Shown piece by piece: positions 1 to 14,762 of a stretch of 14,762 bases of DNA (its first letter is position 1; each line of letters begins with the position of its first letter). A model generated the notes under the pieces. The model had not been told where the DNA came from. It did no database searches and was given only the letters and a program-made list of their open reading frames with translations. Source of the stretch: a virus; UHGV virus genome UHGV-0206032; one strand, written 5' to 3'. The translations under genes and the position numbers were made by a program.

Positions 1-1263
1 ATGGCGGTCTCACACGGCTCCTTGCCATTCAAAGAACAGATCGACTATTTCCGTGGCAAGGTCGACCTACCGACTCGCGCATGGACTGACGCTTACGCTG
101 CTGAACACGACTATGCCTTTGTCGTGGCGGGTGCTGCGAAGCGGGATCTGCTGACCGACCTGCGGGGTGCCGTAGAGAAGTCCATCGCCAGCGGCACCAC
201 CCTGGAGCAGTTCCGCAAAGACTTTGACCAGGTCGTCGGTAAACACGGCTGGCAGTACCAGGGCGAGCGCGGTTGGCGCACCAATGTCATCTGGGAGACC
301 AACCTGCGCCAGTCGTACAACGCGGGCCGCGAAGCCCAAATGGCTGACCCGGAGTTGCGCAAACGCCGTCCCTATGCGGTCTATCGTCATGGCGACAGCG
401 CGCACCCACGGCCAATGCACTTGTCCTGGAACGGCATCACGCTGCCGCTCGATGACCCCTGGTGGGCAACTCATACCCCGCAAAACGGCTGGGGCTGTAA
501 GTGCAAAAAATTCATGCTCTCGGCCAGGGACGTTGAACGCCAAGGGCTGACGATTGGTCCGGCACCGGCCACTGAATGGGAAGATCGGGTCATTGGCCAG
601 AACAGTCCTGACGGACCACGCACAGTGCGAGTGCCCAAGGGCATTGATCCAGGCTTTGAATATGCACCTGGTCAATCACGCCTGACGAACTCCGTGCCCC
701 AGCTGCGCACCCGCGACTTGATACCAGCACCATCAGCAGCTCCGGTACCGGCAATAGGTTTACCCAACCGTCAGCCCACCGGTCCTTTGCCGCAACCTCG
801 ACAAATCCCAGCAAAGCGCCTGCTCCCGGCCAAAGTGTCTGCCCCCCAGGCAGTGACTCAGTTCCTGGGCGAGTTCGGTGCCACGGATGCCACTCCGGCT
901 GTGTTCCGTGATGTGACCGGTGATGCCCTGGTCATCGGGCGGGCGATGTTCAGTGATGCCAAAACCGGCGCAATAGCATTGGCCCAACAAGTCAAGGCCC
1001 GCGAGTTACCGTTGTTGGCTGAAGCCATTAAGGCACCTGATGAGATCTGGGCGCGCTTGGAATGGCAGCCAGATCAAGGCAAAGCGGTGTTGCGCCGTCG
1101 TTACCTGGCGCACGTCCAGGTCAAAGGGAGGGCTGATCCAGCTGTTGCTGTATTCGACCAGGGCGCAGATGGCTGGACCGGCGTTACAGGGTTTGTAGAT
1201 GACAGCGAGCAGTACCTTGAGGCATTGCGCCTGGGTGTCCTGCTTTACCGGCGTACCGAATAG
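1..1263 (+). CDS. Phage head morphogenesis protein, MuF (Mu gp30) family, with Pro-rich linker and C-terminal domain
   Basis: 420-aa ORF starting at window position 1. N-terminal ~230 aa resemble the MuF/SPP1 gp7 head morphogenesis domain as I recall it (DYAFVVAGA...DLLTDLR, NVIWETNLRQSYNAGR, PYAVYRHGDSAHPRPMHLSWNG, NGWGCKCK). RBS GGGAG for the next gene overlaps its stop. True start could lie upstream of the window. Confidence 0.8.
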   Translation: MAVSHGSLPFKEQIDYFRGKVDLPTRAWTDAYAAEHDYAFVVAGAAKRDLLTDLRGAVEKSIASGTTLEQFRKDFDQVVGKHGWQYQGERGWRTNVIWETNLRQSYNAGREAQMADPELRKRRPYAVYRHGDSAHPRPMHLSWNGITLPLDDPWWATHTPQNGWGCKCKKFMLSARDVERQGLTIGPAPATEWEDRVIGQNSPDGPRTVRVPKGIDPGFEYAPGQSRLTNSVPQLRTRDLIPAPSAAPVPAIGLPNRQPTGPLPQPRQIPAKRLLPAKVSAPQAVTQFLGEFGATDATPAVFRDVTGDALVIGRAMFSDAKTGAIALAQQVKARELPLLAEAIKAPDEIWARLEWQPDQGKAVLRRRYLAHVQVKGRADPAVAVFDQGADGWTGVTGFVDDSEQYLEALRLGVLLYRRTE

Positions 1264-1272
1264 GGAGCAGAC

Positions 1273-1836
1273 ATGGCTGGTTCAATGCTTGAGGTATCCC
1301 TCGATACAAGCCCAGTAGGCAAGGCTCTGGACGATCTGGTCGAGCGACTAGGCGACCTGACAACGCCGCTCAATGACATCGCCGAATACCTGCACCAATC
1401 GACTGATGACCGCTTTCGTCAGCAGGTAGCCCCGGATGGTTCGCCCTGGGCGCCACTTGCGCCCTCAACTTTGGCACGTAAGAAGGGAGGCCGCATCCTC
1501 CGCGCCAAGGGCACGCTTCAGGACACACTGCGTCACAACGTCAGCAACAATGAGCTGTCTTTCGGTACTGACCGACCATACGGTGCCATTCACCAGCTCG
1601 GTGGTAAGGTCCAGCATGCGGCCAGGTCACAGCAGGTCTACTTCCGTCAGGGTAAAGATGGATCGGTGGGCAACCGCTTTGTGAAGAAGAGCAAGTCCAA
1701 CTTTGCGCAGTGGGTCACCCGTGGTGCGCATGACTCCGAGATCAAGGCAAGACCCTACCTGGGCCTATCATCAGACGACGATATCGAGATACTGGCGATC
1801 ATCCAGGACTACCTTATGGCGCCAATAACAGAGTAA
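1273..1836 (+). CDS. Phage virion morphogenesis protein (Mu G / gp31-like)
   Basis: 187-aa ORF immediately after the MuF gene, with RBS GGGAGCAG 6 nt upstream of ATG. Size and position match Mu G; sequence resembles the virion morphogenesis family from memory. Confidence 0.7.
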   Translation: MAGSMLEVSLDTSPVGKALDDLVERLGDLTTPLNDIAEYLHQSTDDRFRQQVAPDGSPWAPLAPSTLARKKGGRILRAKGTLQDTLRHNVSNNELSFGTDRPYGAIHQLGGKVQHAARSQQVYFRQGKDGSVGNRFVKKSKSNFAQWVTRGAHDSEIKARPYLGLSSDDDIEILAIIQDYLMAPITE

Positions 1837-2087
1837 CGATGCAGAATCACGCAGGCGCTCTGATAGCGGCTTACGGGTACATCCGTCACCTGTGGATTGG
1901 TTAAACAGCGTTAGACCTGCGTTAGATTCAGTTGTAGCGGTATTGATAACGTCTTCGCGAGATATCGTGCGGCCATTCTCTACATATAAAATGAATTCAC
2001 CGCGCACTCATTCTCGTCCTTCCCCAGGCAAAAACCTTGCGCGGTCCTGAAATTACTTTCATTTAAGTACCCGCCGACACTGGCGGC
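1837..2087 (+). promoter_or_regulatory. Intergenic region, candidate internal late promoter/operator (analogous in position to Mu P_I)
   Basis: Only sizeable non-coding gap in the window (251 bp) and AT-richer than its flanks. Contains direct repeat GCGTTAGA x2 (1908-1915, 1919-1926), inverted repeat ACCGCGCA / TGCGCGGT (1999-2006 / 2038-2045) and a GC hairpin CCGCC-N6-GGCGG (2071-2086) abutting the ATG of the next gene. In Mu a C-dependent late promoter sits upstream of gene I. Confidence 0.3.
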
Positions 2088-3062
2088 ATGAAAACTCAAC
2101 TCGCCGCTAACTCAGAAATTTACAGCTCCGTCGAGCTTTCCGATGGGAAGGCCCCCGACTGGGTTGAACTTATCCCCGCAGGTCCGACCGTCACCGGTCG
2201 TGATGGCCGTGCCTGGCTGTTCGATGACATGGCCACCGAACTGGTGCAGTCCAATTTCATCAGTCGAGCAATCGATCTGGTCATTGACCGGGAGCACGCC
2301 ACACAGCTCCGTGCATCCGTTGGCCAGGAAGCCCCAGCCGGTGCCTGGGTCAAACAATTCGAAATCCGCGATGGCGCTCTGTGGGGTCGCGTTGAATGGA
2401 CGCCTCGCGGTGCTGCTCAGGTCGAGGCCAAAGAGTATCGCTACCTATCCCCAGTGTTCGACTACGACCTCGACAACAAACGCATCGTGCGCATGGTCAG
2501 CGCGGCGCTGACCAATATCCCCAACCTCATCATGACCGCCCTCAACCAAGAAGCCCCGGAGAACACACCAGTGAAACTTTCAGCTGCGTTTTTGGCACTG
2601 CTCGGCCTGCCCGACACCGCCACTGAAGAACAGGCCATGTCGGCCGCAAGCCAACTCAAAACTACCGCCCAGGCCGCCAACACCGAACAGCCAAACTTGG
2701 CGCAGTTCGTCCCGCGTGCGGACTACGACGCCCTGGTCGGCCGTGCCACCAACGCCGAACAGGCGCTGGCCAGCCAGAAGAAGGCCGAGCACGACAAGGA
2801 AGTCGATGCAGTCATCATCTCGGCTACTAAGGCCGGAAAGATCACCCCATCCACCGTCGAGTACCACCGCGCCATGTGCCATGACGAAGCGGGCCTGGCG
2901 CGTTTCAAAGATTTTGTGACAGCGGCCCCTGTCGTGGCTGCGGCATCGGAACTGGGCAACAGGAACCCCGCGAATACCGGCACGGCTCTCAACGCCGAGG
3001 AACAAAAGGTCGCATCGTTGCTGGGTATGAGCGAAGCGGAATTCATCAAGGGCAAGGCGTAA
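2088..3062 (+). CDS. Prohead protease / scaffold protein (Mu I / gp32-like)
   Basis: 324-aa ORF. N-terminal half resembles Mu I-type protease (GKAPDWVELIPAGP...GRDGRAWLFDD); C-terminal half is Ala/Gln/Glu-rich and scaffold-like. Lies directly upstream of the major capsid gene, as in Mu. Confidence 0.8.
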   Translation: MKTQLAANSEIYSSVELSDGKAPDWVELIPAGPTVTGRDGRAWLFDDMATELVQSNFISRAIDLVIDREHATQLRASVGQEAPAGAWVKQFEIRDGALWGRVEWTPRGAAQVEAKEYRYLSPVFDYDLDNKRIVRMVSAALTNIPNLIMTALNQEAPENTPVKLSAAFLALLGLPDTATEEQAMSAASQLKTTAQAANTEQPNLAQFVPRADYDALVGRATNAEQALASQKKAEHDKEVDAVIISATKAGKITPSTVEYHRAMCHDEAGLARFKDFVTAAPVVAAASELGNRNPANTGTALNAEEQKVASLLGMSEAEFIKGKA

Positions 3063-3090
3063 CTCCCCCTCTATATAAAGGAAGAGATTC

Positions 3091-3984
3091 ATGATCATTA
3101 ACGCCAGTGTCTTGAACGCGCTGTTTGTTGCGTACAAGGCCGAGTTCCAAAACGCGCAGGCCGCGACACCGACCGACTGGAAGCGTATCGCCACGCCGGT
3201 CCCGTCCTCATCGGCCAGCAATACCTATGGCTGGCTGGGTCAGTTCCCGATGTTCCGTGAGTGGATCGGCGACCGTGTTCTCAAAAACATGGCAGCGCAT
3301 GGCTACTCCATCACCAACAAGAAGTTTGAGTCCTCGGTGGGTGTCCCACGTGATGCCATCGAAGACGACGAGATCGGCGTTTATAAGCCGCTGTTTGCCG
3401 AAATGGGGCGTGCTTCCAGTGCGCACCCGGACGAGCTGGTATTCGCGCTGCTCAAAGCGGGCTTGACCACCACCTGTTACGACGGCCAGTACTTCTTCGA
3501 TACTGATCATCCGGTCTACCCGTCGACCGATGCGTCTGGCACGGCGGTTTCCGTCAGCAACTATCAAGACGGTACAGGCCCGGCCTGGTATCTGCTCGAT
3601 GTCAGCCGCGCCCTGAAACCCATCATCTTTCAGAACCGTCGCAACTACGATCTGAAAGCGATGACCGCAATGGACGACGAAAGCGTATTCATGCGCGACG
3701 AATACCGCTATGGCGTGGATGCCCGGGTGAACGTCGGCTTCGGCTTCTGGCAGTTCGCTTACTGCTCAAAAGCCCCACTGACCGCCGAGAATTACGGCCT
3801 GGCTCGCGCAGCCATGAAGAACTTCCAGGCCGATGGCGGTCGCCCTTTGGGCATCAACCCCGGCCTCCTGGTTGTTCCATCCCAACTGGAAGGCGCTGCT
3901 CGCAAGATCCTGGTCAAGGATGCGGACAACGGCAACGAATGGGCAGGCACCGCCGAAGTACTTGCACCGGCCTGGCTGGGCTAA
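3091..3984 (+). CDS. Major capsid (head) protein, Mu T / gp34-like
   Basis: 297-aa ORF with strong RBS AGGAAGAG upstream. Size and position after the protease/scaffold gene match Mu T; sequence is consistent with the Mu-like major head subunit family from memory. Confidence 0.8.
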   Translation: MIINASVLNALFVAYKAEFQNAQAATPTDWKRIATPVPSSSASNTYGWLGQFPMFREWIGDRVLKNMAAHGYSITNKKFESSVGVPRDAIEDDEIGVYKPLFAEMGRASSAHPDELVFALLKAGLTTTCYDGQYFFDTDHPVYPSTDASGTAVSVSNYQDGTGPAWYLLDVSRALKPIIFQNRRNYDLKAMTAMDDESVFMRDEYRYGVDARVNVGFGFWQFAYCSKAPLTAENYGLARAAMKNFQADGGRPLGINPGLLVVPSQLEGAARKILVKDADNGNEWAGTAEVLAPAWLG

Positions 3985-3993
3985 GGGGGCGTC

Positions 3994-4548
3994 ATGACCA
4001 TTGTGATCACCTCGAAACATGACGGTTTTCGCCGCTGTGGCATCGCCCACTCCAGCGCGGCCGCGCGTTACCCGGATGACTTCTTTTCGGAAGCGCAGTT
4101 GCGGGCTCTGTCAAAAGAGCCTCAGTTGATCCTCGCTTATGAGGAGGATGAATTCGACCAGGTACAGGACCGCCGCGATGAAAACCTCCAGGAAGTCGAT
4201 GTATCGAAAGCGGCCGGCACCTCTGAAAGTACCTTGCAGGGCTTGGGTCAGACAGACCCTGCGGCAGTGGGTGACGCTGGGCTTAACCTCCAGCACGGAG
4301 CCAGCCATGGGCTTGATTTGCCGCAGGTAGGTGGTGTTGTTTCGGCAGATGAGGTCAAGCCTGAGCCAGACCTTGAGGCACTTTGGATCGCCGCGCTCCT
4401 GGAAGACGAACAACGGGAAGCGGCCAAACTGAACGCAGAGACCGAAACGCTTTGGGATGAAGCGATTGCGGAGGATGTACTGCGGGAGGTGGCCAAAGAA
4501 AAGGCGGCAAAGGCACCAGCAAAGCCTAAAAAGGCAGCGGGTAAATGA
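3994..4548 (+). CDS. Mu gp35 / FluMu-like small head-associated protein with acidic middle and Lys/Ala-rich tail
   Basis: 184-aa ORF with RBS AAGGGGG. N-terminal MTIVITSKHDGFRRCGIAH motif resembles the FluMu/Mu gp35 N-terminal domain; middle is strongly acidic; C-terminus is KEKAAKAPAKPKKAAGK. Stop overlaps the next start (ATGA). Confidence 0.5.
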   Translation: MTIVITSKHDGFRRCGIAHSSAAARYPDDFFSEAQLRALSKEPQLILAYEEDEFDQVQDRRDENLQEVDVSKAAGTSESTLQGLGQTDPAAVGDAGLNLQHGASHGLDLPQVGGVVSADEVKPEPDLEALWIAALLEDEQREAAKLNAETETLWDEAIAEDVLREVAKEKAAKAPAKPKKAAGK

Positions 4549-5036
4549 ACCTCTCACTGCCGTCCGCCAGCCAGCTCCTGGTCCGCTTTGGCCCTCGTGA
4601 TATCACCGAGGTTGCAGTCGCGGATACCGACAGGGTCATCGAGCCCGAGCTGCTGGTAGCCGCTGCCGCAGGCAAGCCATTGGATGACTGGTCTGCGGAA
4701 GATGTGGCCATCGCCGTCATGGCGTTGGCCAGGATCGCTGACGCGGTCACTCGGTCGCGTAGTGAGGTTTCGTTTTACCTGCGGTTCCGTGCGGCTGGCG
4801 AAGATGCTCCCGAATGGGTCACCGATGACCTGGCCGAGATCGCTCGCTACCACCTGTACGACGATGCCGGAAAGGAAGAGTCGACTGTGCGGGTGCTCTA
4901 CAAGGACGTGATAAAGCGCCTTGAAACTCTGGCCAAGGAAGACAAGGAGCGTGGAGCCGCCGAGGCAGGCCGGTCGGGCATGCAGCTCACCAGTCAGCCA
5001 CGACTAATGTCTCGCACCACCTTGAGGTCGCTCTGA
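4545..5036 (+). CDS. Head-tail joining / head completion protein (Mu gp36-like, DUF1320-type)
   Basis: 163-aa ORF, ATGA-coupled to the upstream gene and TGATG-coupled to the downstream gene. N-terminus (LLVRFGPRDITEVA) resembles the gp36-family start motif; position matches Mu J/gp36. Confidence 0.5.
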   Translation: MNLSLPSASQLLVRFGPRDITEVAVADTDRVIEPELLVAAAAGKPLDDWSAEDVAIAVMALARIADAVTRSRSEVSFYLRFRAAGEDAPEWVTDDLAEIARYHLYDDAGKEESTVRVLYKDVIKRLETLAKEDKERGAAEAGRSGMQLTSQPRLMSRTTLRSL

Positions 5037-5602
5037 TGTTGGGCGAGCTGGAAGACCTGATCGAGGCGCGCCTGAAGGAACTGACGGCCAAGATCCCGCG
5101 CCTGGCCGTGGAAAGCTACGGCGGTGAATTGAGCGACCCGGACCTGTTGCCTGGGTTGCTCAAACGTTGCCCGGCTGTACTGGTCATGGTGCCCAAGGTG
5201 ACGTTTCAGCGGCGTAGTCAAAATCGCTACACGGTGCCGATTACCTTCCGCCTGGTCATTGCCACACGTCACCCCCGTGGCGAACGGGAAACCCGGCGGG
5301 GTAGCGGCCCAAAGGACGTGGGTAGCTACGACCTATGGGAAGCCTGCATGCATCAACTGGTGGAATGGCAGCCTTGGGTAGATCGTGCAGCTATTCGTCC
5401 GACCGAGCTTTCCAACCTGGTCAACGGCAAGTTGGCCAGCGACCACCTCTCAGTCCTGGGGCAATCGTTCGTCATCGAACTGGATTGGGAAAAACCGAAA
5501 GAGGCTCTGCCTGACTTCCTGGGCGTCAGCTTGGAATACCACACCCCATCGGATAACCCCGAGCCGGTGGCCACCGACATCATCGAACTGAGGGACGTGT
5601 AA
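5036..5602 (+). CDS. Head-tail joining protein (Mu gp37-like, DUF1834-type)
   Basis: 188-aa ORF, start overlaps the previous stop (TGATG). Position and size match Mu gp37/K analogues. Confidence 0.5.
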   Translation: MLGELEDLIEARLKELTAKIPRLAVESYGGELSDPDLLPGLLKRCPAVLVMVPKVTFQRRSQNRYTVPITFRLVIATRHPRGERETRRGSGPKDVGSYDLWEACMHQLVEWQPWVDRAAIRPTELSNLVNGKLASDHLSVLGQSFVIELDWEKPKEALPDFLGVSLEYHTPSDNPEPVATDIIELRDV

Positions 5603-5793
5603 TGCACGTTATCGCCGCACCTGGTCATCGGGTGCCCATGGATGAAGATCCGTACAAGTACATCGAAGAGGCCGAGTCCGTCGACGTGCCAGATACCTCC
5701 TACTACCGACGCCGCTTGGCGGCTGGTGAACTGCTCGCCGCGAAGAAACCACGCGGCAGTGCCAAACAACTCGCACAGGAATCCGCTGAATGA
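5602..5793 (+). CDS. Small tail-associated protein (DUF2635-like, Mu gp38 position)
   Basis: 63-aa ORF, TAATG-coupled upstream and ATGA-coupled to the sheath gene. Motifs APGHRVPMDEDP and DTSYYRRRL resemble the small conserved protein found just upstream of sheath genes. Confidence 0.45.
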   Translation: MHVIAAPGHRVPMDEDPYKYIEEAESVDVPDTSYYRRRLAAGELLAAKKPRGSAKQLAQESAE

Positions 5794-6890
5794 GCATTTC
5801 CTTTGACACCATCCCGGCGTCGATTCGCAAGCCGGGCGTTTACATTGAGTTCAACACCAGCCTGGCGGTACGGACGCTGCCCACCAACAAGCAGAGTGTC
5901 TGCCTGATCGTGCCCCTGGGCGTCGATGCTACTGTTGCGGCCAACGTGCCTACGCCGTTCTACAGCGCAGCCGAGGCCAAAGCCTTGTTCGGCGGGACAG
6001 TGGCCGAGGAAATGGCGGACGCGTTTATCACCGCCTATCGGTACGCCTCCATCTCGGCCGTAGGTGTGGTGGTCGAGGGCGAAACAGAACCCGACATCAA
6101 GGCTGCTTTGGACTCGACCGCCATGGGTGGTTTCACCATCCTGGTGCCTGCCTGGTTTAGCCAGGTCGCACTCACTGCATTGCGCACGCACATCCAGACC
6201 TACACCAGTTCGATGGAGCAACAGGGAATCATCGGTGTGGCGGCGCTGACCAGCACCTTGTCGGCCGCGACCACGTTGGCCACGTCGCTGAACTCCGGCG
6301 CAATCAGCTTGGCAGTCCTGCCGGGAACTGCATCGACTGCGCGCCAGGTAGCCGCCGCGTATGCCGCGATGATCGCCTCGGAAGAAGATCCAGCGCGGCC
6401 GCTGAATACCCTGGTGTTGACTGGTATCAAGGTTCCGCCGGTCACTCAGCGTCTCGGTCGTACAGAGCAGGAAACGGCGCTGGCCAATGGTGTCACGCCG
6501 CTGGAGGTTGCGGCCGGTGATGTCATCCAGATCGTCCGTGCAGTGACCACCTACACCAAGTCTGCTGCTGGTGCCACGGACGTGTCGCTGCTGGATTTGA
6601 CCACTATCCGCACTCTGTATTACGTGCGTGTGGCCATTCGTGACCGCATCCGGCTGCGCTTCCCACGCTCGAAACTCTCCAGCAAGACGCCTGCGGCTGT
6701 TCGTGGCGAGATCCTGGACGTACTCAAGAAGCTGGAAGAGTTGGAAATCGTCGAAGAGGTGGACGCCAACGCCGATGGTCTGGTGGTTGAGCGTTCACTC
6801 CAGGACGTAAACCGCCTCAATGCAACCATTCCTGTCGATGTAGTCAACGGCCTGCATGTGTTCGCCGGTCGCATTGACCTGCTCCTGTAA
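5790..6890 (+). CDS. Tail sheath protein (Mu L-like)
   Basis: 366-aa ORF. N-terminus (TIPASIRKPGVYIEFNTSLA) matches the characteristic sheath N-terminal pattern; followed by a ~120-aa tube gene, as expected for contractile tails. Confidence 0.7.
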   Translation: MSISFDTIPASIRKPGVYIEFNTSLAVRTLPTNKQSVCLIVPLGVDATVAANVPTPFYSAAEAKALFGGTVAEEMADAFITAYRYASISAVGVVVEGETEPDIKAALDSTAMGGFTILVPAWFSQVALTALRTHIQTYTSSMEQQGIIGVAALTSTLSAATTLATSLNSGAISLAVLPGTASTARQVAAAYAAMIASEEDPARPLNTLVLTGIKVPPVTQRLGRTEQETALANGVTPLEVAAGDVIQIVRAVTTYTKSAAGATDVSLLDLTTIRTLYYVRVAIRDRIRLRFPRSKLSSKTPAAVRGEILDVLKKLEELEIVEEVDANADGLVVERSLQDVNRLNATIPVDVVNGLHVFAGRIDLLL

Positions 6891-6903
6891 GAGGTGATTT
6901 TAG

Positions 6904-7275
6904 ATGGCTGATAACTACGTAGGGCAGATCGTCCTGGAGATCAACGGCACCGATTATGAGGTGACGAGCGTTGAGCCGAGCCTTAAGACCGGGCGTAAGG
7001 TCGTCAAGACGATGAACCGCACAGGCCGTCCCACCGGCACGGCAAAAGGTATTGAAGAGCACGAGCTGAAAATCTCGGTGCCAATTCCGAAGACTGGCGA
7101 GCCAGACTGGCGGGCACTGATGGACGCCAAGCTGACCATCTATCCGCAGGACGGTGGCAGTAAGCGCCAGACCTGGACCGGGTGTTCTTTGATGGAGATG
7201 GGCAGTAAGTACCAGGTAGAGGGTGAAGCCACCCGCGACCTGACCATCGCCGCCCTCAACTACTACCCGGAGTGA
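6904..7275 (+). CDS. Tail tube protein (Mu M-like)
   Basis: 123-aa ORF with RBS AGAGGTGA. Size and position (sheath -> tube -> chaperone -> tape measure) match tail tube proteins. Confidence 0.65.
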   Translation: MADNYVGQIVLEINGTDYEVTSVEPSLKTGRKVVKTMNRTGRPTGTAKGIEEHELKISVPIPKTGEPDWRALMDAKLTIYPQDGGSKRQTWTGCSLMEMGSKYQVEGEATRDLTIAALNYYPE

Positions 7276-7279
7276 TGCA

Positions 7280-7666
7280 ATGACCGAGCAATCAAGCAAG
7301 CGCTGGGAAGGACTGAGCATCACCCGCGAACTCAAAATGGGTGTCTATTACTCCGGCCTGCGCCACAAGACCTTCACTTTGCGTGTTCCTGTTGCGGGCG
7401 ACCTGGTCGCCGCGCAGGAGCTGCACCCAGGCGCACCATTTCAACTGATCACCCTGGAGGTTTATCGCCGTCAGTTGTTGTCCCTGGGCGAGATTCCCGC
7501 CGACGCGTTGACCACTGAATTGCTCCTGGGCGAACTCACCGAGAGCGACCTGGCCATCATTGCCGATGCCGATGCCGAGCTGGAAAAAAAGCTCGCGCCG
7601 CCGAGCGCGGCAACGTCGACTGGCGACGAATCGAACACGCCTTCGTCCGCCACGGCTACCGGCTAG
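7280..7666 (+). CDS. Tail assembly chaperone (short, in-frame product)
   Basis: 128-aa ORF between tube and tape measure genes. Contains an in-frame A_AAA_AAG slippery heptamer at 7585-7591. Confidence 0.6.
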   Translation: MTEQSSKRWEGLSITRELKMGVYYSGLRHKTFTLRVPVAGDLVAAQELHPGAPFQLITLEVYRRQLLSLGEIPADALTTELLLGELTESDLAIIADADAELEKKLAPPSAATSTGDESNTPSSATATG

Positions 7667-7843: not shown

Positions 7844-10261
7844 ATGTCCGATCTGCGCGTCGCGCTTCGTTTCCAGGCCCATGCGGGTAACAGTCGGCGC
7901 GAGATCGAGCAGATCAACCGTGACCTGCGCAAGGCTGGCAAGGAGGGCGCCAAGGCTCTGGCCGATGAAAGCTGGAAAGCGTCTTCTGCCATCACCAAGG
8001 TCGGCCAGGTCGGGGCCAACAGCTATAAAGTGATCCGTGCAGCAATGCGCGAAACCGCTACGGCTGGTTCCGGCACGCGCATCGAGGTCAGCAAGACAAC
8101 TGCTGAACTCAAGGATATGGCCAATGCAGCTCGCAAGGCTGCACGAGATGCGAAAACTGAGTTGCAGAACACCGACCGGCAAGGCGTGCAGCCCTTGCGC
8201 CAGAGCGTTGATAAGACAGAGGCATCCTTCCGGCGCATGGCACAGAACAGCGGTCGCAGCCTGCGAACTTTGAAAACCATCGCTATGGGTGTGCGTCAGG
8301 AGTTTGATCGCATCAAGGGGCTGGGCGGGAGCATGCAAGGGAAACTGGCTGGGTTAGGTGTGGGAGTCGGTGTTGTGTCGGGCGTGACATCAAGTGCAAA
8401 GCTGGACCGCCAGCTTATACGTACTCAACAAACTGCGGGCATGTCAGTTGAACAGCGTGAAGAATGGCGTGGTGAACAGTGGCGCTTAGCAAAAACCTAC
8501 GGCATTGAACGTGAGCAAGTTCAAACAGGGTTCGATACCTTGATCGCAAGTGGTATGTCCTACGATAAAGCGAAAGCAAGTTCCGGAGCTATCGCTCAAG
8601 CAACAGCAGTTACGGGGGCTGACTCCGGGATTCTGGCTAAAGCGCTTATAACTGGTGCGAGCGCTTTTGATATTGACCTCTCTAAGCCCAACGCTGCTGT
8701 AGACATCTTGCAAAAAATGATCGTTGCTGGCCGTCTGGGTAACGCTGAACTTGAGAATCTATCAAGCATTTTCCCTAAAGTGGGGCAGGACGCCAAGTCG
8801 GCGGGCATGTCCATGGCTCAGTCTCTTTCGTTTGTTGAAACGTTATCTCTTATTGAACTTGAACCTGATCGTCTAGGAACTCTGGCGCAATCGACTTTGC
8901 GTGCATTCAACAATGGTAATTACCGCAAGAGCGTTACGAAAAATACAGGCGTCGATTTTTTCAACAAGGATAAGTCTGTAAGGAATACTCAGGATGTATT
9001 TCTTGACCTACAGCACAAATACAAATCACTTAAGAATGACAAAGATCGCGCTCGATTCATGGATGTGGTGTTTGGAAAGATGGACCAGGACACGCAAAAG
9101 GGAGTTAAGGCGTTCTTGACTGGTGATCGACTGGAGAACTTTGCTAAAAGTACCGGGGACATTAATAACGCCAAAGGCGTTATTGAAAAGGATCTGGCCG
9201 ATAACATGAGCAGTTCGACTGCTGTCGGTTCTCGAATGAAGGCCAGCCTTGGCGAAGCCATCGACCGTATGGCGAAGCCATTGAACAAAGGCTTTGCAGA
9301 CCTCGGCAGTTACCTGCTCGATGATCTGAATTTGTCAGGCGAGCAAATGCTGGTCGGTGGTGCCGCACTGGGAGTCGGTGGCTACTACGCCGGACGCGGT
9401 GCCAAAGCAGGCGCAGGCGCTTTGCTCAACAAGTTTATGGGTGGACCGGAGACCTTGAAAAACATCGCCGTGGGCAAGGTGTTGGAAGAAGCCACGGGCG
9501 TTACATCTGTTTTCGTCACCAACTGGCCTGCTGGTGCGCCCCTCGGTATTGGCAGCGGTCCCGACCTGCCCAATGGTCCCAGTTCCGGTAAAGGCAACGG
9601 GAAGCCAGGTGGTTTTATCACCCCGTGGCTAGCACCCTTGGCTTTAGCTGCGACGGCCACGCAGATCGGCGGGGCAAGTGCGACGGCTACAGACGAAGGT
9701 CGCCTCGATGCTGCCCAGCGCAGCAAGCTGCTTAACGATGATCAGCGAACGTACCAGGCGTCCTTCTACCGCAACCGCATGGCCCTGGCCGACAGGAATC
9801 CCAGCCAGTCATCTGATTGGCTGTCCTCAGAGGCCCAACGCCTGGCGCACCATGAAACCGGCCTGACAGCTGCGGGCCTGCCCATCGATGGCGCAAACAC
9901 CTGGGCCCAAGGCATCGCCGGTCGTGCCCTGGCTGCGGGTGCCAACACCTTCACAGCACAACAACGCCTGCGGGACATGATGGCGCAATCCGGTACCAGC
10001 CAGCCTTCGACCTGGTTAGCCGACCAGGCGCAACGCCTGGCTAACCCGTTGTCGGGCGGCAGCATGGCTGGCTTTCCTGGAATTGCCGGCAACGGCTCCG
10101 CACCAGGTGCAATCGGTGCCAATCCTGCCGCACAAGCCGCCGAGGAACGCCTCCGCTCCTTGCTCACCCAGCCGCTGATCATTGAAGTGCGTACTGACTC
10201 ACGGATGATCCAGGCCGAGGTTGAGCGTCGAACTGATATTCAGATGAGGCGCGGCGGATGA
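7844..10261 (+). CDS. Tail tape measure protein
   Basis: 805-aa ORF with RBS GGGAG, downstream of the chaperone. Has Gly-rich/hydrophobic stretches, a conserved-looking central core and C-terminal repeats. Stop overlaps the next start (ATGA). Confidence 0.85.
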   Translation: MSDLRVALRFQAHAGNSRREIEQINRDLRKAGKEGAKALADESWKASSAITKVGQVGANSYKVIRAAMRETATAGSGTRIEVSKTTAELKDMANAARKAARDAKTELQNTDRQGVQPLRQSVDKTEASFRRMAQNSGRSLRTLKTIAMGVRQEFDRIKGLGGSMQGKLAGLGVGVGVVSGVTSSAKLDRQLIRTQQTAGMSVEQREEWRGEQWRLAKTYGIEREQVQTGFDTLIASGMSYDKAKASSGAIAQATAVTGADSGILAKALITGASAFDIDLSKPNAAVDILQKMIVAGRLGNAELENLSSIFPKVGQDAKSAGMSMAQSLSFVETLSLIELEPDRLGTLAQSTLRAFNNGNYRKSVTKNTGVDFFNKDKSVRNTQDVFLDLQHKYKSLKNDKDRARFMDVVFGKMDQDTQKGVKAFLTGDRLENFAKSTGDINNAKGVIEKDLADNMSSSTAVGSRMKASLGEAIDRMAKPLNKGFADLGSYLLDDLNLSGEQMLVGGAALGVGGYYAGRGAKAGAGALLNKFMGGPETLKNIAVGKVLEEATGVTSVFVTNWPAGAPLGIGSGPDLPNGPSSGKGNGKPGGFITPWLAPLALAATATQIGGASATATDEGRLDAAQRSKLLNDDQRTYQASFYRNRMALADRNPSQSSDWLSSEAQRLAHHETGLTAAGLPIDGANTWAQGIAGRALAAGANTFTAQQRLRDMMAQSGTSQPSTWLADQAQRLANPLSGGSMAGFPGIAGNGSAPGAIGANPAAQAAEERLRSLLTQPLIIEVRTDSRMIQAEVERRTDIQMRRGG

Positions 10262-11601
10262 GCTGGGCAGAGAACCTGCTGGACGCTTCCTTCCGTGGCG
10301 TCCCGCTCCAAGTAGAAGGCGAAAGCCTACAATGGCAACGCGCCCTGTCTGAGCATGGGACGCCGTTCAAGGATGGCGACCGGGTCAAAGACCTGGGCCG
10401 TGGTGCGCGCCGTATCCCCATGCAAGTAGTGGTGTTCGGCGTCAATTACGAGATCGAACTCCAGAACATCCTCCGTACCTTGAATACACCAGGTACGGGC
10501 GAACTGATCCACCCGATCTACGGCAGCATGAATGTCGTCAGCAGCACCGGCGAGGTAAAGCACAGCGCCGAGCGGCCAGACTATGCCGAGATCAGCATAG
10601 TGTTTGTTGAGGACACGCCCGACGCTCCATTCTTCGACCGGCAGTTTGAATTTGTCGATGTCGGCGTATTGGGGTTGGAGGATGAATACACCTGGCAGGA
10701 TGGCATCTTCGATCTGTTCGGCCGTATTGATTCCCTGGTCGGCGAGATTCAATCGTGGATCGGCGGGGGCTGGGTAGGACTGATCGAAAAGGCCCTGGGC
10801 TTGCCTGGCATTGGCCTGCGCTTGCAACAGCTGCGCTCGCAGATCATGGGTGTGGTGTCCGGCGTCGGGTCGATGGCCAAGCGGCCATCAGGGGCGTTTG
10901 ATCCCCTGGTCGACCTGATGCGCACACCCTCGGAGATCCGAGGCGCCATCCAGGGCAGCACGCCCAGTTCGTCAACGACGCTACTAGCTCGCACTGGCGT
11001 ACCCGTTAGCTTGCCTGGTAATGCCAGCCTGGTGGCGGATGCTGCGCGTGCGGGTACTGGCTTTCTGATAGGTGCCCGACAAGGTGTGGCACCCACCGTC
11101 GGCCTGCTGATCGACGGCGTACCGACCAATGCGGGCAGCGCCCTGGTGCTGCTGCCCGACGGAATGCCGGATGATCCGGTTACCGCTAACGGTTTCGCCC
11201 TGGTCGTCCTGGTCATCACTGAACTGGCACTGGCTCACGCCCAGGCGGTAGCCACCGTCATCGAGGACGAAGCCGATACGCCGACGTTGAGTCCATTAGA
11301 GCTGGAAGGCCTGGTTAATTTGGTGCGCTCGCTGGTGCAGTCGTCCATCCTTCTACAACGTCACCTTTTCGACGTAGAGACCGCACTGCCGATCATTGAT
11401 GCATTGCGCAACGTCGCCGCGTTGATCCAGGCCCGCGCCCGTCAAGTCATTTTGCAAAGTCCTCCGATGCTTGAGCGGGTGGTTGAGACGCCTGCAAGCC
11501 TACATTTGCTGGCTCACCGCTGGTATGGCGGGCCGAGTGGAAGGAAAAGGTCGAAGCGGCCGCTGCTCGCGTCGACAAGATCGCCAAAAAAGGCGGCATG
11601 A
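10258..11601 (+). CDS. DNA circulation protein (Mu N / gp43-like)
   Basis: 447-aa ORF. N-terminus (ASFRGVPLQVEG, LGRGARRIP, GTGELIHPIYGS) matches the DNA circulation protein N-terminal domain as recalled for Mu N. The 3' end is uncertain: its last ~40 codons overlap other frames (see findings). Confidence 0.75.
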   Translation: MSWAENLLDASFRGVPLQVEGESLQWQRALSEHGTPFKDGDRVKDLGRGARRIPMQVVVFGVNYEIELQNILRTLNTPGTGELIHPIYGSMNVVSSTGEVKHSAERPDYAEISIVFVEDTPDAPFFDRQFEFVDVGVLGLEDEYTWQDGIFDLFGRIDSLVGEIQSWIGGGWVGLIEKALGLPGIGLRLQQLRSQIMGVVSGVGSMAKRPSGAFDPLVDLMRTPSEIRGAIQGSTPSSSTTLLARTGVPVSLPGNASLVADAARAGTGFLIGARQGVAPTVGLLIDGVPTNAGSALVLLPDGMPDDPVTANGFALVVLVITELALAHAQAVATVIEDEADTPTLSPLELEGLVNLVRSLVQSSILLQRHLFDVETALPIIDALRNVAALIQARARQVILQSPPMLERVVETPASLHLLAHRWYGGPSGRKRSKRPLLASTRSPKKAA

Positions 11602-11650
11602 GTCAGACAACAGCGGACGAAATCCGGCGCGAGATCCTGGGGATGGCATC

Positions 11651-13204
11651 GTGAGTCTGCCCCTCGTCCTAGACAGCACCGCCACTTTGCTTGCCCCAGC
11701 GGTCTTACTCGACTATCAGAAAGAGTGGATCGGTATACGCGCCCCACTCAAGGTTGGCGAGAAATCCCGGCGTATCGGTCTCACATGGGCTGAGGCGGCA
11801 GACAACGTCCTGGTAGCCGCGTCCGAAAAATCGGCGGGCGGTCAAACTGTCTATTACCTCGGCTACAACCAAGACATGACCGTGGAGTACATCCAGGCAT
11901 GCGCCATGTGGGCGCGGGCCTATAACTACGCGGCCGAGCAAATAGAAGAAGGCATCTGGCCCGACAGCGACCCCGACAAACACATCAAGACCTACACCAT
12001 CGCGTTTCCCAGCGGCCACCGCATCGTCGCGCTGACCAGTCGCCCGTCCAACCTGCGTGGGCGTCAGGGCGTTGTCGTGATCGACGAAGCCGCGTTCCAT
12101 GCGGACTTGGCCGAGCTGCTCAAAGCTGCAATGGCTCTGTTGATCTGGGGCGGTGAAGTCCATGTGATCAGCACCCACGACGGTACGGAGAACCCCTTCA
12201 ACGACCTGGTCAACGAAATCCGGTCAGGCAAGCGCAATGGTGAAGTGTTCCGCTGCACGTTCGGTGAAGCCGTTGCCGATGGTCTGTACAAGCGTGTCTG
12301 CCTGCGTAAAGGCATTGGGTACAGGCTTGAGGATCAAATCGCCTGGGTGAATGACGTATACGACTTCTACGGCGATGCAGCCGACGAAGAATTAGACTGC
12401 GTGCCATCCCAGGGTGGCGGTGCCTTCCTCAGCATGGCCCTGGTTGAGCAGCGCAGTAACCGTGACGTGCCGGTACTGCGCCTGGCATACCCGCAGGGTT
12501 ACGAAACCATCGCCGAACACTTGCGCCTGGCCGAGTCCCTGGAGTGGTGCGAAGAGCATTTGCTCCCGCTGCTTTCGGCCATTCCCCTGGACGTTCAGAG
12601 CTTCTATGGCATGGACTTCGGGCGCTCCGGAGACCTCTCGGTCTTCTGGCCATTGCTCAAAGAGCAGAATCTGCGCAAACGCACGCCCTTTGTGGTCGAG
12701 CTGCGTAACGTCCCGTTCAAGCAACAACTCCAGATTAAGTTTTACATCATTCGTCGCTTACCCAACTTCCTCAAAGGCGCCGACGACGCCAGGGGCAACG
12801 GCTCGCAACTGTCGGAAGACACTGCCGTCGAGTTCGGCTTCAACCGCATCGAGCGTGTGATGCTCACCGAGGGCTGGTATCGCGACAACATGCCGCCGTT
12901 CAAGGCCGCCCTGGAAGATGACACCTTCTACGACATCCCGGCCGACAAGGATGTGGTTAGCGACGTGCGTGCCTTTCGGATGGTCAAGGGCGTGGCTCGC
13001 ATCCCCGAAAAGCGCACCAACGAAAAGGGCGAAAAGTCCGGACCGAAGCGCCATGGCGACGCCGGTATCGCGGCCGTACTGGCCGACTACGCCTCTCGTC
13101 AAGATGTCGAAATCTTCGAATATCACCGCGTCCAGCCAGCCGTCCAGCATGATCGCGAGATCAAGCACGGGGCTGGGTGGCGCTCTCAGAAAGGCATTTG
13201 GTAA
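11651..13204 (+). CDS. Terminase large subunit (Mu gp28-like)
   Basis: Frame of track ORF 11471..13204, but start proposed at GTG 11651 (RBS GGGGA 7 nt upstream); the upstream in-frame part is Arg-rich junk overlapping gene N. Motifs: LLDYQKEW near N-terminus, Walker-B-like VVVIDEAAF, ISTHDG, nuclease-domain-like GMDFGRSGDLSV, C-terminal RHGDAGIAAVLA. Confidence 0.75.
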   Translation: MSLPLVLDSTATLLAPAVLLDYQKEWIGIRAPLKVGEKSRRIGLTWAEAADNVLVAASEKSAGGQTVYYLGYNQDMTVEYIQACAMWARAYNYAAEQIEEGIWPDSDPDKHIKTYTIAFPSGHRIVALTSRPSNLRGRQGVVVIDEAAFHADLAELLKAAMALLIWGGEVHVISTHDGTENPFNDLVNEIRSGKRNGEVFRCTFGEAVADGLYKRVCLRKGIGYRLEDQIAWVNDVYDFYGDAADEELDCVPSQGGGAFLSMALVEQRSNRDVPVLRLAYPQGYETIAEHLRLAESLEWCEEHLLPLLSAIPLDVQSFYGMDFGRSGDLSVFWPLLKEQNLRKRTPFVVELRNVPFKQQLQIKFYIIRRLPNFLKGADDARGNGSQLSEDTAVEFGFNRIERVMLTEGWYRDNMPPFKAALEDDTFYDIPADKDVVSDVRAFRMVKGVARIPEKRTNEKGEKSGPKRHGDAGIAAVLADYASRQDVEIFEYHRVQPAVQHDREIKHGAGWRSQKGIW

Positions 13205-14760
13205 TGGCTGACTCCAAAATCGTCGACCAGTACGGTCGCCCGATCCAGTACGACAAACTCACGGAAGAGCTGGCAGTTGCCCGCACCACCGGCATTCGCC
13301 AGATTTGGCACCAGTCGGTGGCCAACGGCCTGACACCTCAGCGTCTGGCGAGTATTTTGCGGGCCGCTGCCGAGGGATCAGCTAATGACTACCTGACCCT
13401 TGCTGAGGAAATGGAAGAACGGGATCTGCATTATGCCTCGGTGTTAGGCACACGTAAGCTGGCAGTGGCCGGGTTGTCGGTTCGGATCGAGGCAGCCAGC
13501 GACGATCCCGAGGACGTACGCCGGGCCGATCAGCTCAAGGAGCTAGTTGACTCTCCCGAGTTTGGCGAGCTTCAGGCGGACCTGACTGACGCCATGGGCA
13601 AAGGCTATGCCGTCTCCGAAATCATGTGGGACCGTAGTGGTAAGACCTGGAATCCTGAGCGTTTTGAACCCCGCGATCAGCGATTCTTCCAATTTGACCG
13701 TGAAACCGGCCGGGAGCTGCGCCTGCTCGATGAGGCTGATCCGATCAATGGTGTTGCCCTGGCTCCGTACAAATTCATTGTTCATCTGCCGCGTATCCGC
13801 TCTGGTCTTCCGATCCGGGGCGGCCTGGCGCGCCTCGCGGCTGTTGGCTACATGTGCAAGGCCTGGACTTGGAAGGACTGGATGGGCTTTGCTGACATCT
13901 TCGGCATGCCGATGCGCGTCGGCCGGTACGGCGCAGGTGCGAGCAAGGAAGACATCAGCACTCTGATGTCTGCGGTGGCCAACCTGGGCAGCGATGCAGC
14001 AGCGGTGATCCCGGACAGCATGCGCATTGAGTTTACCCAGGCCGCCAATGTGGGCGGTGCCGGGGACTTCTTCAAAGGGCTGGCCGAATGGTGGGATAAA
14101 CAAGTCAGTAAGGCCGTAGTCGGTCAGACCATGTCCACCGACGACGGCTCCAGCCAAGCCCAGGCAACGATTCATAACGAAGTTCGTATAGACCTACTGC
14201 AAGCCGATGCCAAGGCCGAATCCAACACCTTGAACCGCTACTTTGTGCGGCCCTGGTGCGATCTGAACTTTGCACCTGGTCGTCCGTATCCGCGGCTGAT
14301 CATTGATGTGCCAAAGCCAGAAAACACCAAGATCCTGATCGAGGCACTCAAGACACTCGTTCCGTTAGGGTTGAAGGTCGAGCAGTCCGTAATCCGCGAC
14401 AAGCTCAATATCCCGGCTCCGGCCGAGGGTGCCGAACTGCTGGGCATCCCGCCACCCGTTGCCACTCCTGCGCTGGCCCAGGCTACCAACAGCGAGCAAA
14501 AGCCAGCCAAGCCGGTGGTAATGCCGGACATCGTGGATAACCAGGTGCGGACGCTTGAGCGGACTGTGGGGGTCTATATGGATGACATGGTCGAGCAGAT
14601 CAAGGAACTACTCGACACCGTCAGCAGCCTGGAAGAGTTCCGGGATCGGCTGATCGAAGCCTATCCAGCGATGACCACCAGCCAATTGGCCGATGCGATT
14701 GCTGATGGCCTGACGGCCGCCAGCATGGCTGGCCGCGATGACATTCTGAGAGGCCTGTAA
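13204..14760 (+). CDS. Portal protein (Mu gp29-like, DUF935-type)
   Basis: Start proposed at ATG 13204, which overlaps the TerL stop (TAATG), rather than the track's 13177. 518 aa, directly downstream of TerL. N-terminal region (IWHQSVANGLTPQRLASILRAAAEG...LAEEMEERDLHY) resembles the Mu gp29 portal family from memory. Confidence 0.75.
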   Translation: MADSKIVDQYGRPIQYDKLTEELAVARTTGIRQIWHQSVANGLTPQRLASILRAAAEGSANDYLTLAEEMEERDLHYASVLGTRKLAVAGLSVRIEAASDDPEDVRRADQLKELVDSPEFGELQADLTDAMGKGYAVSEIMWDRSGKTWNPERFEPRDQRFFQFDRETGRELRLLDEADPINGVALAPYKFIVHLPRIRSGLPIRGGLARLAAVGYMCKAWTWKDWMGFADIFGMPMRVGRYGAGASKEDISTLMSAVANLGSDAAAVIPDSMRIEFTQAANVGGAGDFFKGLAEWWDKQVSKAVVGQTMSTDDGSSQAQATIHNEVRIDLLQADAKAESNTLNRYFVRPWCDLNFAPGRPYPRLIIDVPKPENTKILIEALKTLVPLGLKVEQSVIRDKLNIPAPAEGAELLGIPPPVATPALAQATNSEQKPAKPVVMPDIVDNQVRTLERTVGVYMDDMVEQIKELLDTVSSLEEFRDRLIEAYPAMTTSQLADAIADGLTAASMAGRDDILRGL

Positions 14761-14762
14761 AC

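What the first reader, a model, noticed from the sequence alone, without database searches (positions are those of the whole stretch)
11471..11700. Non-canonical synteny: DNA circulation gene (N) abuts the large terminase gene, with no baseplate or fibre genes
In Mu and Mu-like phages the order is TerS-TerL-portal-F-G-I-T-...-sheath-tube-TMP-N-baseplate-fibres. Here the window runs F...N in canonical order, then N is followed directly by TerL and portal. No baseplate, tail fibre, lysis or small terminase gene lies between them. At the junction all three forward frames are open and overlapping (N tail in frame 1, an Arg-rich read-through in frame 2, a 56-codon stop-free stretch in frame 3). This could be a deletion between tandem Mu-like prophages, a circular or collapsed assembly, or a genuinely reduced element carrying only capsid and tail-shaft genes.
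Basis: partly seen in the sequence, partly recalled or inferred. Interest (0 to 1): 0.7.

Follow-up and report, generated by a model that had tools for sequence, protein, structure and literature searches.

The report
Closure point of a circularised phage contig
The odd gene order is the point where a 14.8-kb piece of an ordinary Pseudomonas Mu-like prophage was joined head to tail in a database contig treated as a circle, so it is not a new kind of reduced phage.

Summary
The N gene (10258-) runs straight into the large terminase and portal genes, with no baseplate, fibre or lysis genes between them.

It is not an evolved gene order. The window is exactly one closed copy of a contiguous wild-type segment. 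Near-identical contigs (99.94-100%) from at least 7 other samples carry that segment in canonical Mu order: lysis, gp27, TerL, portal, F ... TMP, N, gp44-48, fibre. The window's end (portal stop) and start (F ATG) are natural neighbours.

The only novel join lies between 11530 and 11531.
- It removes the conserved last 32 codons of N.
- It leaves only the last 40 of 170 codons of gp27 (small terminase).
- The join is near-blunt, with a 5-nt ATGGC one base to its left.

No other sequence searched contains the join, and 99 of 99 relatives have gp44 directly after N.

The window's proteins are GenBank TPA entries DAK72055-72070. These come from the Cenote-Taker 2 human virome catalogue, which circularises any contig with terminal repeats of 21 nt or more and rotates it to an ORF boundary.

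Verdict: a one-off head-to-tail join, either a library or amplification chimera or a rare circle or duplication, presented as a circular genome. Low interest.

The parts
1..1263 (+). Mu F-like head morphogenesis gene with a C-terminal PBECR2 nuclease-fold domain. Its ATG is base 1 of the window, which is the rotation or wrap point.
   Evidence: Pfam Phage_Mu_F and PBECR2. In L005 and L007-L010 this ATG follows the portal stop by 2 nt.
1273..7666 (+). Head and tail-shaft genes in Mu order: G (1273-1836), I protease/scaffold (2088-3062), T major head (3091-3984), FluMu_N-domain protein (3994-4548), gp36 (4545-5036), gp37 (5036-5602), DUF2635 (5602-5793), sheath (5790-6890), tube (6904-7275), gp41-like chaperone (7280-7666).
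   Evidence: Pfam. PHROGs tube phrog_185 and chaperone phrog_508.
7844..10261 (+). Tape measure protein, 805 aa.
   Evidence: Pfam PhageMin_Tail. The identical protein is DAK72055.1 and occurs in Logan contigs L005 and L006.
10258..11530 (+). N' : the first 424 of 456 codons of the DNA-circulation / baseplate-hub protein N (Mu gp43-like).
   Evidence: Pfam DNA_circ_N. PHROG phrog_184 match ends at residue 425. Alignment to wild-type L007 ends at 11530. The lost residues 425-456 are conserved.
11525..11531 (.). The novel join. N sequence ends at G11530 and gp27 sequence starts at G11531. ATGGC (11525-11529) is present at both parental sites.
   Evidence: Base-by-base alignment with L007. The gp27-side base at this position is A in 23 of 23 relatives where it could be read, so G11530 comes from N. 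Logan contig L012 starts exactly at 11531.
11531..11601 (+). Out-of-frame tail of N': 23 codons plus stop, read in frame 1 through gp27-derived DNA.
   Evidence: Translation. No other protein in the 5.8-billion-protein database matches this tail.
11531..11654 (+). 3' remnant of gp27 (small terminase). The last 40 of 170 codons plus stop, in frame 3, with no start codon or N-terminal domain.
   Evidence: Pfam Phage_Mu_Gp27 positions 132-173 of 173. phrog_426 positions 140-183 of 184. Wild-type gp27 in L007 is 170 aa and matches the full profile. Codon arithmetic.
11651..13204 (+). Large terminase (Mu gp28-like), 517 aa from a GTG that overlaps the gp27 stop. The database record annotates it from ATG 11525 (559 aa).
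   Evidence: phrog_2. Relatives aa. The 559-aa form is DAK72060.1.
13204..14760 (+). Portal protein (Mu gp29-like), 518 aa. Its stop lies 2 nt before the window end.
   Evidence: Pfam Portal_Mu E 9e-106. phrog_113. DAK72061.1.

Best explanation
The N-to-TerL adjacency is the closure point of a contig that was treated as a circle. It is not a gene order that any phage lineage maintains.

Shown:
- The window is exactly one copy (14,762 bp) of a contiguous stretch of an ordinary Pseudomonas fluorescens-group Mu-like transposable prophage. The stretch runs from the middle of gp27 (small terminase) to near the end of N.
- Its two ends are joined head to tail between 11530 and 11531.
- The sequence has then been rotated so that it starts at the ATG of F.
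- The join is near-blunt. It has no strict microhomology, and a 5-nt ATGGC lies one base to its left.
- It destroys both genes it touches. N loses 32 conserved C-terminal residues and gains a 23-residue nonsense tail. gp27 keeps only its last 40 codons.
- The window's proteins are GenBank TPA entries from the Cenote-Taker 2 human virome catalogue. That pipeline assembles with MEGAHIT, calls any contig with identical terminal repeats of 21 nt or more circular, and rotates it so that no ORF crosses the wrap point.

Inferred:
- The assembler closed a loop, so at least a couple of reads in the source library must have crossed the join.
- The wild-type flanks must have been weak or absent in that assembly.
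- The most likely source is a chimeric or circular DNA molecule in the library. It was made by template switching or ligation during amplification or library preparation, or by a rare illegitimate excision that was then over-represented.
- A tandem duplication in a resident prophage is a less likely source.

Consequence: the 14.8-kb circle has no replication, integration, small terminase, baseplate or fibre functions. It cannot act as an element of its own.
For: - Collinearity and exact length. Window 11525-14762 plus 1-8989 plus 8982-11530 map contiguously onto L007 3673-19867 at 99.94-99.99% identity. The L007 span minus its ISL3 insertion equals 14,762, which is the window length.
- The window end and start are natural neighbours in L004, L005 and L007-L010.
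- Wild-type order in relatives is holin, SLT, gp27, TerL, portal, F ... TMP, N, gp44. After N come gp44, gp45, gp46, gp47, gp48, fibre and chaperone. Mu transposase and a MuB-like AAA+ protein lie upstream.
- Of 99 N-relatives with at least 1.5 kb downstream, gp44 follows N directly in 96 by the strict positional criterion. In the other 3 it lies 600-1,064 nt past the end of a partial N alignment. None has TerL within 3 kb.
- None of 36 gp27-relatives has N within 3 kb upstream.
- The join is absent from IMG/VR, GTDB genomes, JGI metagenome contigs and PLSDB.
- No homologue among the N-family proteins returned from the 5.8-billion-protein database matches the chimeric tail.
- Provenance. N' is DAK72056.1, and 11 other window proteins fall in DAK72055-72070, all named 'MAG TPA ... 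Caudoviricetes sp.'. The methods are in PMC8201803 and bioRxiv 10.1101/2020.09.15.298943.
- Logan contig SRR8240678_6337 is the only contig with the window's private TerL allele. It starts exactly at 11531. This is as expected if that base has two different upstream contexts in the reads.
- The lost N residues are conserved, with mean column conservation 0.79.
Against: - No reads were available, so the origin of the join (in vitro or in vivo) is not established.
- The 5-nt identity next to the breakpoint occurs in only about 0.25% of random joins for this configuration, or 0.9% for any run of at least 5 nt. This points to a homology-guided event. Such an event could be biological, but polymerase template switching gives the same signature.
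- A closed loop from MEGAHIT implies that the joined form outweighed the wild-type flanks. A single stray chimera does not easily explain that.
- The other Logan contig from the same run ends at 11469, not at 11530 as a simple two-way branch would predict.
- F and TerL with the starts I used were not found among the TPA entries. TerL is there with a different start.
Confidence: 0.85

Rival explanations
1. A real in vivo rearrangement in a resident prophage. This would be a tandem duplication of the 14.76-kb gp27'-to-N' block, which is equivalent to a deletion between two tandem prophage copies. It would have arisen by RecA-independent illegitimate recombination, and the assembler collapsed it into a loop.
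For: - The topology fits. There is one novel join, and the window length equals the distance between the two sites.
- The near-microhomology is unlikely for a random join.
- The Logan contig break at exactly 11531 suggests that both the wild-type and the joined context exist in the same run. A duplication would give exactly that.
Against: - With two copies, the wild-type flanks would have half the depth of the block. A de Bruijn assembler would then output the block as a linear contig without terminal repeats, not a closed loop. This is inference from how MEGAHIT prunes.
- No genome, virus or metagenome contig carries the join.
- The breakpoint has no strict microhomology.
Confidence: 0.12
2. 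A genuinely reduced, maintained element that keeps only capsid and tail-shaft genes. Candidates would be a satellite, a gene-transfer-agent-like element or a tailocin-like derivative of a Mu-like phage.
For: Only the gene content of the window itself: head, sheath, tube, TMP, TerL and portal, without baseplate or fibres.
Against: - The join truncates N inside a conserved C-terminal motif and leaves a promoterless 40-codon stump of gp27.
- The sequence is 99.94-100% identical to intact prophages, so there has been no independent evolution.
- No second instance was found anywhere.
- It has no replication, integration, small terminase or baseplate genes. A contractile tail cannot assemble without a baseplate (established knowledge of Mu, P2 and T4 tail assembly).
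- All 99 informative relatives have gp44 immediately downstream of N.
Confidence: 0.01
3. A pure assembly collapse or mis-join on a repeat shared by N and gp27, or an arbitrary concatenation of contig ends by downstream software, with no supporting molecule.
For: The record comes from an automated pipeline that states DTR contigs were 'arbitrarily assumed' to be circular.
Against: - The two parental sites share only 5 nt at the breakpoint. No shared word longer than 10 nt lies within 300 nt of both sites. This is far below any assembler k-mer and below the 21-nt DTR threshold.
- A 21-nt terminal repeat can only arise if the contig itself read across the join.
- An independent assembly (Logan) of run SRR8240678 breaks at exactly the same base.
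Confidence: 0.03

Closest known systems
Mu-like transposable prophages of the Pseudomonas fluorescens group. Examples: Logan contig SRR5677835_238 (L007), IMGVR_UViG_2639762904_000003, and prophages in Pseudomonas sp. MF4836, P. proteolytica DSM 15321 and P. salomonii ICMP 14252.
   Same: Every base of the window except the join is collinear with these. Identity is 99.94-100% to the Logan and JGI contigs. N protein identity is 92-96% to the named genomes. The genes are the same and in the same order from gp27 through N.
   Different: They carry intact gp27 and N, with lysis genes upstream of gp27. gp44-gp48, fibre and chaperone lie downstream of N, and a Mu-type transposase plus a MuB-like ATPase lie at the left end. 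The window lacks all of these and joins N codon 424 to gp27 codon 131.
Escherichia phage Mu and Burkholderia phages BcepMu / phiE255 (Mu-like myoviruses)
   Same: The late-module families are the same: Phage_Mu_Gp27, gp28-like TerL, Portal_Mu, Phage_Mu_F, Mu-like_Pro, Mu-like_gpT, gp36, gp37, sheath, tube, gp41, TMP and DNA_circ_N. TerL DNA is 64-65% identical to BcepMu gp28.
   Different: The relationship is distant at sequence level. In those phages N is followed by the baseplate genes (established Mu gene order). The window's N-to-TerL adjacency has no counterpart there.
Falsely 'circular' partial genomes in DTR-based virus catalogues (Cenote-Taker 2 / CHVD TPA records)
   Same: The window's proteins are TPA entries of that catalogue. 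The contig begins at an ORF boundary, as the pipeline's rotation step produces. Circularity there rests only on a terminal repeat of 21 nt or more.
   Different: Typical true positives are complete genomes whose closure point lies in real terminal redundancy. Here the closure point cuts two genes, and the 'genome' is about 40% of the 33-36 kb parental prophage (contig lengths).

Membership tests
Mu-like transposable myovirus (late morphogenesis module) | Contiguous gp27 (TerS), gp28 (TerL), gp29 (portal), F order | tested here: met
   TerL, portal and F are contiguous across the window's end and start, exactly as in L005 and L007-L010. gp27 precedes TerL but only as a 40-codon 3' remnant.
Mu-like transposable myovirus (late morphogenesis module) | N (gp43-like) followed by baseplate genes gp44-gp48 and fibres | tested here: not met
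   In the window, N is followed by the gp27 remnant and TerL. Of 99 relatives, 96 have gp44 directly after N by the strict criterion and the other 3 have it within about 1 kb of a partial N alignment. L016 shows gp44, gp45, gp46, Baseplate_J, gp48, fibre and chaperone.
Mu-like transposable myovirus (late morphogenesis module) | Mu-type DDE transposase A and AAA+ MuB-like protein | tested here: not met
   Absent from the window. Present in relative L116, which is 92-96% identical: Mu-transpos_C at the locus edge and an AAA_22 protein next to it. The parental phage therefore qualifies, and the window is a fragment of it.
Autonomous reduced phage-derived element (satellite, GTA-like or tailocin-like) | The same architecture recurs in independent genomes or samples | tested here: not met
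   The join pattern, with wobble positions allowed, was found 0 times in viral, genome and metagenome contigs. It is also absent from PLSDB. The chimeric N tail is unique.
Autonomous reduced phage-derived element (satellite, GTA-like or tailocin-like) | Intact reading frames at module boundaries and a complete gene set for what it builds | tested here: not met
   N is truncated by 32 conserved residues and gp27 is reduced to 40 codons. There are no baseplate, fibre, lysis, replication or integration genes.
Autonomous reduced phage-derived element (satellite, GTA-like or tailocin-like) | Sequence divergence from the parental phage, indicating independent descent | tested here: not met
   There are 0-2 mismatches per aligned block against intact prophage contigs.
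DTR-circularised and rotated assembly contig (Cenote-Taker 2 / CHVD) | Proteins identical to a deposited TPA record of that catalogue | tested here: met
   Exact matches to DAK72055, 56, 57, 59, 60, 61, 62, 63, 65, 67, 69 and 70, all named 'MAG TPA ... [Caudoviricetes sp.]'. The TPA deposition is described in PMC8201803.
DTR-circularised and rotated assembly contig (Cenote-Taker 2 / CHVD) | The sequence starts and ends at an ORF boundary, and its two ends are neighbours in the parent genome | tested here: met
   Base 1 is the ATG of F and the portal stop ends at 14760. The two are 2 nt apart in L005 and L007-L010.
DTR-circularised and rotated assembly contig (Cenote-Taker 2 / CHVD) | Reads spanning the closure point, and depth of the block relative to its flanks | not testable with these tools
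   No read data are available. The only indirect evidence is that Logan contig SRR8240678_6337 begins at exactly 11531.
Assembly collapse on a repeat | A repeat of at least assembler k-mer length shared by the two joined sites | tested here: not met
   Only 5 nt (ATGGC) are shared at the breakpoint. The longest shared word within 300 nt of both sites is 10 nt, at unrelated offsets.

The most novel reading that the evidence does not exclude
The join reflects a real in vivo product: a 14.8-kb circle or amplified tandem array carrying the head-to-tail-shaft module. It would have been excised from a replicating Pseudomonas Mu-like phage by near-microhomology illegitimate recombination, and it was abundant enough in one sample to out-compete the parental flanks in assembly.
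Probability: 0.2. Interest if true: 0.2.

Novelty: not a real feature. Interest (0 to 1): 0.07.

Why it matters
It matters mainly as a data-quality point. A public TPA 'circular genome' in a widely used human virome catalogue is about 40% of an ordinary Pseudomonas Mu-like prophage, closed on itself at a gene-destroying join. Synteny-based searches for reduced or satellite-like phage elements will pick up such records as false positives.

A simple test exposes them. Check whether the contig's two ends are natural neighbours in close relatives, and whether the odd junction cuts conserved genes.

If the join turned out to be a real in vivo circle or duplication, it would be a minor example of illegitimate recombination in a transposable phage. 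It would not be a new kind of element.

Tried and rejected
- An exact and a wobble-tolerant search for the join found nothing in IMG/VR, GTDB genomes and JGI metagenomes. PLSDB also had no match.
- A search of JGI metagenome contigs for the window-specific TerL allele found nothing.
- An exact look-up of the chimeric N in the gene-position index found nothing. The protein-cluster look-up later found it, in NCBI nr only.
- A predicted intact N with the window's allele is not in the collection.
- A literature search for the SRA run numbers gave 0 papers. No supplementary tables of PMC8201803 are held. The Biosample and library type of the source could therefore not be established.
- Pfam found no domain in the lost N C-terminus. 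Conservation was measured from an alignment instead.
- Protein accession numbers in the TPA record are not in positional order, so they could not confirm the deposited orientation.

Readings considered and rejected:
- Assembly collapse on a repeat. No shared repeat exists.
- A Mu-transposition product. There are no Mu ends at the join.
- IS-mediated rearrangement. There is no IS sequence at the join, and the ISL3 seen in L007 is inside TMP and absent from the window.
- Significance of the stretch with all three frames open.
Full report
**1. The observation**

The window encodes, all on the + strand, a Mu-type morphogenesis block (Pfam; PHROGs):
- F (1-1263, with a C-terminal PBECR2 domain)
- G (1273-1836)
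- I (2088-3062)
- T (3091-3984)
- a FluMu_N-domain protein (3994-4548)
- gp36, gp37 and DUF2635
- sheath (5790-6890)
- tube (6904-7275)
- gp41-like chaperone (7280-7666)
- tape measure (7844-10261)
- N (10258-11601)

Then come the large terminase (11651-13204) and the portal (13204-14760). No baseplate, fibre or lysis gene lies between N and TerL.

The frame-3 stretch 11487-11654 is the C-terminal end of the Mu gp27 small terminase. It matches Pfam profile positions 132-173 of 173 (E 4e-9) and PHROG phrog_426 positions 140-183 of 184. Its stop overlaps the GTG start of TerL, as in a normal gp27/gp28 junction.

The stretch with all three frames open (112 nt, 11487-11598) is unremarkable. At least 12 longer ones occur elsewhere in the window.

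**2. The window is a circular permutation of a wild-type segment**

The window begins at the ATG of F and ends 2 nt after the portal stop. A 40-mer made by joining the window's end to its start occurs exactly in an IMG/VR prophage contig.

Exact-protein look-ups found near-identical contigs in unrelated samples. The samples are Logan SRR5677835, SRR8653232, SRR25404393, ERR173906, ERR650993 and SRR8240678, and JGI 3300076464.

Against L007 (SRR5677835_238, 26 kb) the alignment is:
- window 11525-14762 maps to L007 3673-6910
- window 1-8989 maps to L007 6911-15899, which is contiguous with the previous block
- window 8982-11530 maps to L007 17319-19867, after an ISL3 insertion with an 8-bp target duplication

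Each block has 0-2 mismatches. The L007 span 3679-19867 minus the IS is 14,762 bp, exactly the window length. So the window is one copy of a contiguous wild-type stretch, closed on itself and rotated.

**3. Wild-type context**

In L007 the order is holin, SLT lysin, small ORFs, gp27 (170 aa), TerL (517 aa), portal (518 aa), F ... TMP, N (456 aa), gp44.

In Pseudomonas sp. MF4836 (L016), N is followed by gp44, gp45, gp46, Baseplate_J (gp47), gp48, a fibre protein and a fibre chaperone.

Relative L116 has a Mu transposase C-terminal domain and a MuB-like AAA+ protein at the left end.

Hosts of the relatives are Pseudomonas, mostly the fluorescens group. Prophage contigs are 33-36 kb.

Systematic checks:
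- Among 101 loci encoding an N relative, 99 have at least 1.5 kb downstream. gp44 follows N in all of them: 96 by the strict positional criterion, and the other 3 within about 1 kb of the end of a partial N alignment. None has TerL within 3 kb.
- Of 36 gp27 loci with upstream sequence, none has N within 3 kb upstream.

**4. The join**

Base-by-base alignment gives:
- N parent: ...CGCTGGTATGGCG|ACCACACC
- gp27 parent: ...GAAAAAATGGCA|GGCCGAGTGG
- window: ...CGCTGGTATGGCG|GGCCGAGTGG

The crossover lies between 11530 and 11531. G11530 comes from N, because the corresponding gp27 base is A in 23 of 23 relatives where it could be read.

Strict microhomology is zero. A 5-nt ATGGC lies one base to the left of the join. 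In 200,000 random joins of the parental sequence, that configuration occurs in 0.25%, and any run of at least 5 nt in 0.9%. No shared word longer than 10 nt lies near both sites, and the window has no terminal repeat. A k-mer-level assembly collapse is therefore excluded.

Consequences of the join:
- N keeps codons 1-424 and gains 23 out-of-frame codons.
- The 32 lost residues are as conserved as the rest of the protein across 117 N sequences (0.79 against 0.77). R428, E431, L432, R434, L435, N436, P437, P442 and G448 are invariant.
- gp27 keeps only its last 40 codons.

**5. Uniqueness**

The join, with wobble positions allowed, is absent from IMG/VR, 185,579 GTDB genomes and JGI metagenome contigs. 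It is also absent from PLSDB. No phage record in INPHARED spans it. In the 5.8-billion-protein search, the close N homologues (441-456 aa) cover only about 95% of the query, so the chimeric tail is unmatched.

**6. Provenance**

The chimeric N is NCBI nr DAK72056.1, 'MAG TPA: DNA circulation protein [Caudoviricetes sp.]'.

Eleven other window proteins are exact matches to TPA entries: DAK72055, 57, 59, 60, 61, 62, 63, 65, 67, 69 and 70. DAK72060 is TerL annotated from ATG 11525, 559 aa.

TPA virus assemblies of this kind were deposited by Tisza and Buck (PMC8201803). According to that paper:
- SRA human metagenomes were co-assembled per Biosample with MEGAHIT default settings.
- Contigs were run through Cenote-Taker 2.
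- Contigs with at least 21 nt of identical direct repeats at their termini were taken as circular. [quoted passage not shown] This accounts for the window starting at an ATG and ending just after a stop, at a place that is an ordinary gene boundary in the parent phage.

**7. What made the join (inference)**

A terminal repeat of at least 21 nt can only arise if the assembled contig itself ran across the join and back into sequence it already contained. Reads crossing 11530/11531 must therefore have existed. The wild-type continuations must also have been absent or pruned in that assembly.

The window's private TerL allele (A12363) occurs in only one contig, Logan SRR8240678_6337. That contig is 100% identical to window 11531-14609 and starts exactly at 11531. 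This is what a de Bruijn graph gives when that base has two different predecessors, A from wild-type gp27 and G from the join. It suggests that both forms are present in that run. A second contig from the same run ends at 11469, not 11530, which I cannot explain.

I cannot tell from sequence alone which of the following produced the joined molecule:
- an in vitro chimera or circle, from template switching, ligation or rolling-circle over-amplification
- a rare in vivo excision circle
- a tandem duplication

A two-copy duplication should leave flanks at half the block's depth. It should then yield a linear block contig, not a loop, so I rank it lower.

**8. Function**

The 14.8-kb unit has no replication, transposition, integration, lysis, small terminase, baseplate or fibre genes, and N is damaged. 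Contractile tails assemble on a baseplate (established knowledge for Mu, P2 and T4), so the gene set cannot build a tail or package DNA on its own. With 99.94-100% identity to intact prophages, there has been no time for independent evolution. The 'reduced element' reading is rejected.

**9. Verdict**

The synteny anomaly is real in the deposited sequence. It is the closure point of a partial prophage segment presented as a circular genome. It is a one-off join, not a new architecture. The underlying phage is an already well-represented Pseudomonas Mu-like prophage. Interest is low. The residual novel reading, a genuine in vivo circle or amplification, has about 0.2 probability and modest interest.

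Noticed in passing
window 1-1263 (residues 287-417): The Mu F-like head morphogenesis protein carries a C-terminal PBECR2 (Barnase-EndoU-ColicinE5/D-RelE-like) nuclease-fold domain (E 8e-26). NCBI names the same protein in Pseudomonas genomes 'PBECR2 nuclease fold domain-containing protein'.
   Followed up: no
window 8250-9250, and L007 15899-17319: The tape-measure gene has a low-GC patch (GC 0.45-0.53 against about 0.60 elsewhere). In relative L007 an ISL3-family transposase element is inserted at window-equivalent 8982-8989, with an 8-bp target duplication GGAATACT that splits the tape-measure gene.
   Followed up: partly
window 1837-2087, and minus-strand ORF 1771-2007: A 250-nt gap between G and I has lower GC (about 0.53). 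A 78-aa minus-strand ORF here is called as a gene in several Logan contigs and has no Pfam hit on record.
   Followed up: no
whole window; loci L005-L012: The same phage, at 99.9% identity or more, turns up in at least 7 unrelated SRA/JGI samples and in a human-metagenome virus catalogue. Related contigs (85-89% identical) come from Mexican human faecal viromes. One member of the G-protein cluster sits in a EukProt slime-mould (Synstelium polycarpum) data set. This looks like a ubiquitous or contaminant Pseudomonas fluorescens-group strain.
   Followed up: no
window about 7681-7788: A 35-aa ORF between the gp41-like chaperone and the tape measure is called in Logan contigs. It may be the frameshift partner of the tail assembly chaperone.
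   Followed up: no
window 11525-13204: The deposited record annotates the large terminase from ATG 11525 (559 aa, DAK72060.1). That start codon sits in the ATGGC at the join and adds 42 residues read out of frame through gp27 sequence. Relatives use the GTG at 11651 (517 aa). This is probably a start-codon mis-call.
   Followed up: partly
L001 7707-8099 (MT835710.1): This more distant relative (85-88% identical) has about 380 extra bases between the portal stop and the F start, where the window and its close relatives have 2 nt. The content of the insert was not examined.
   Followed up: no
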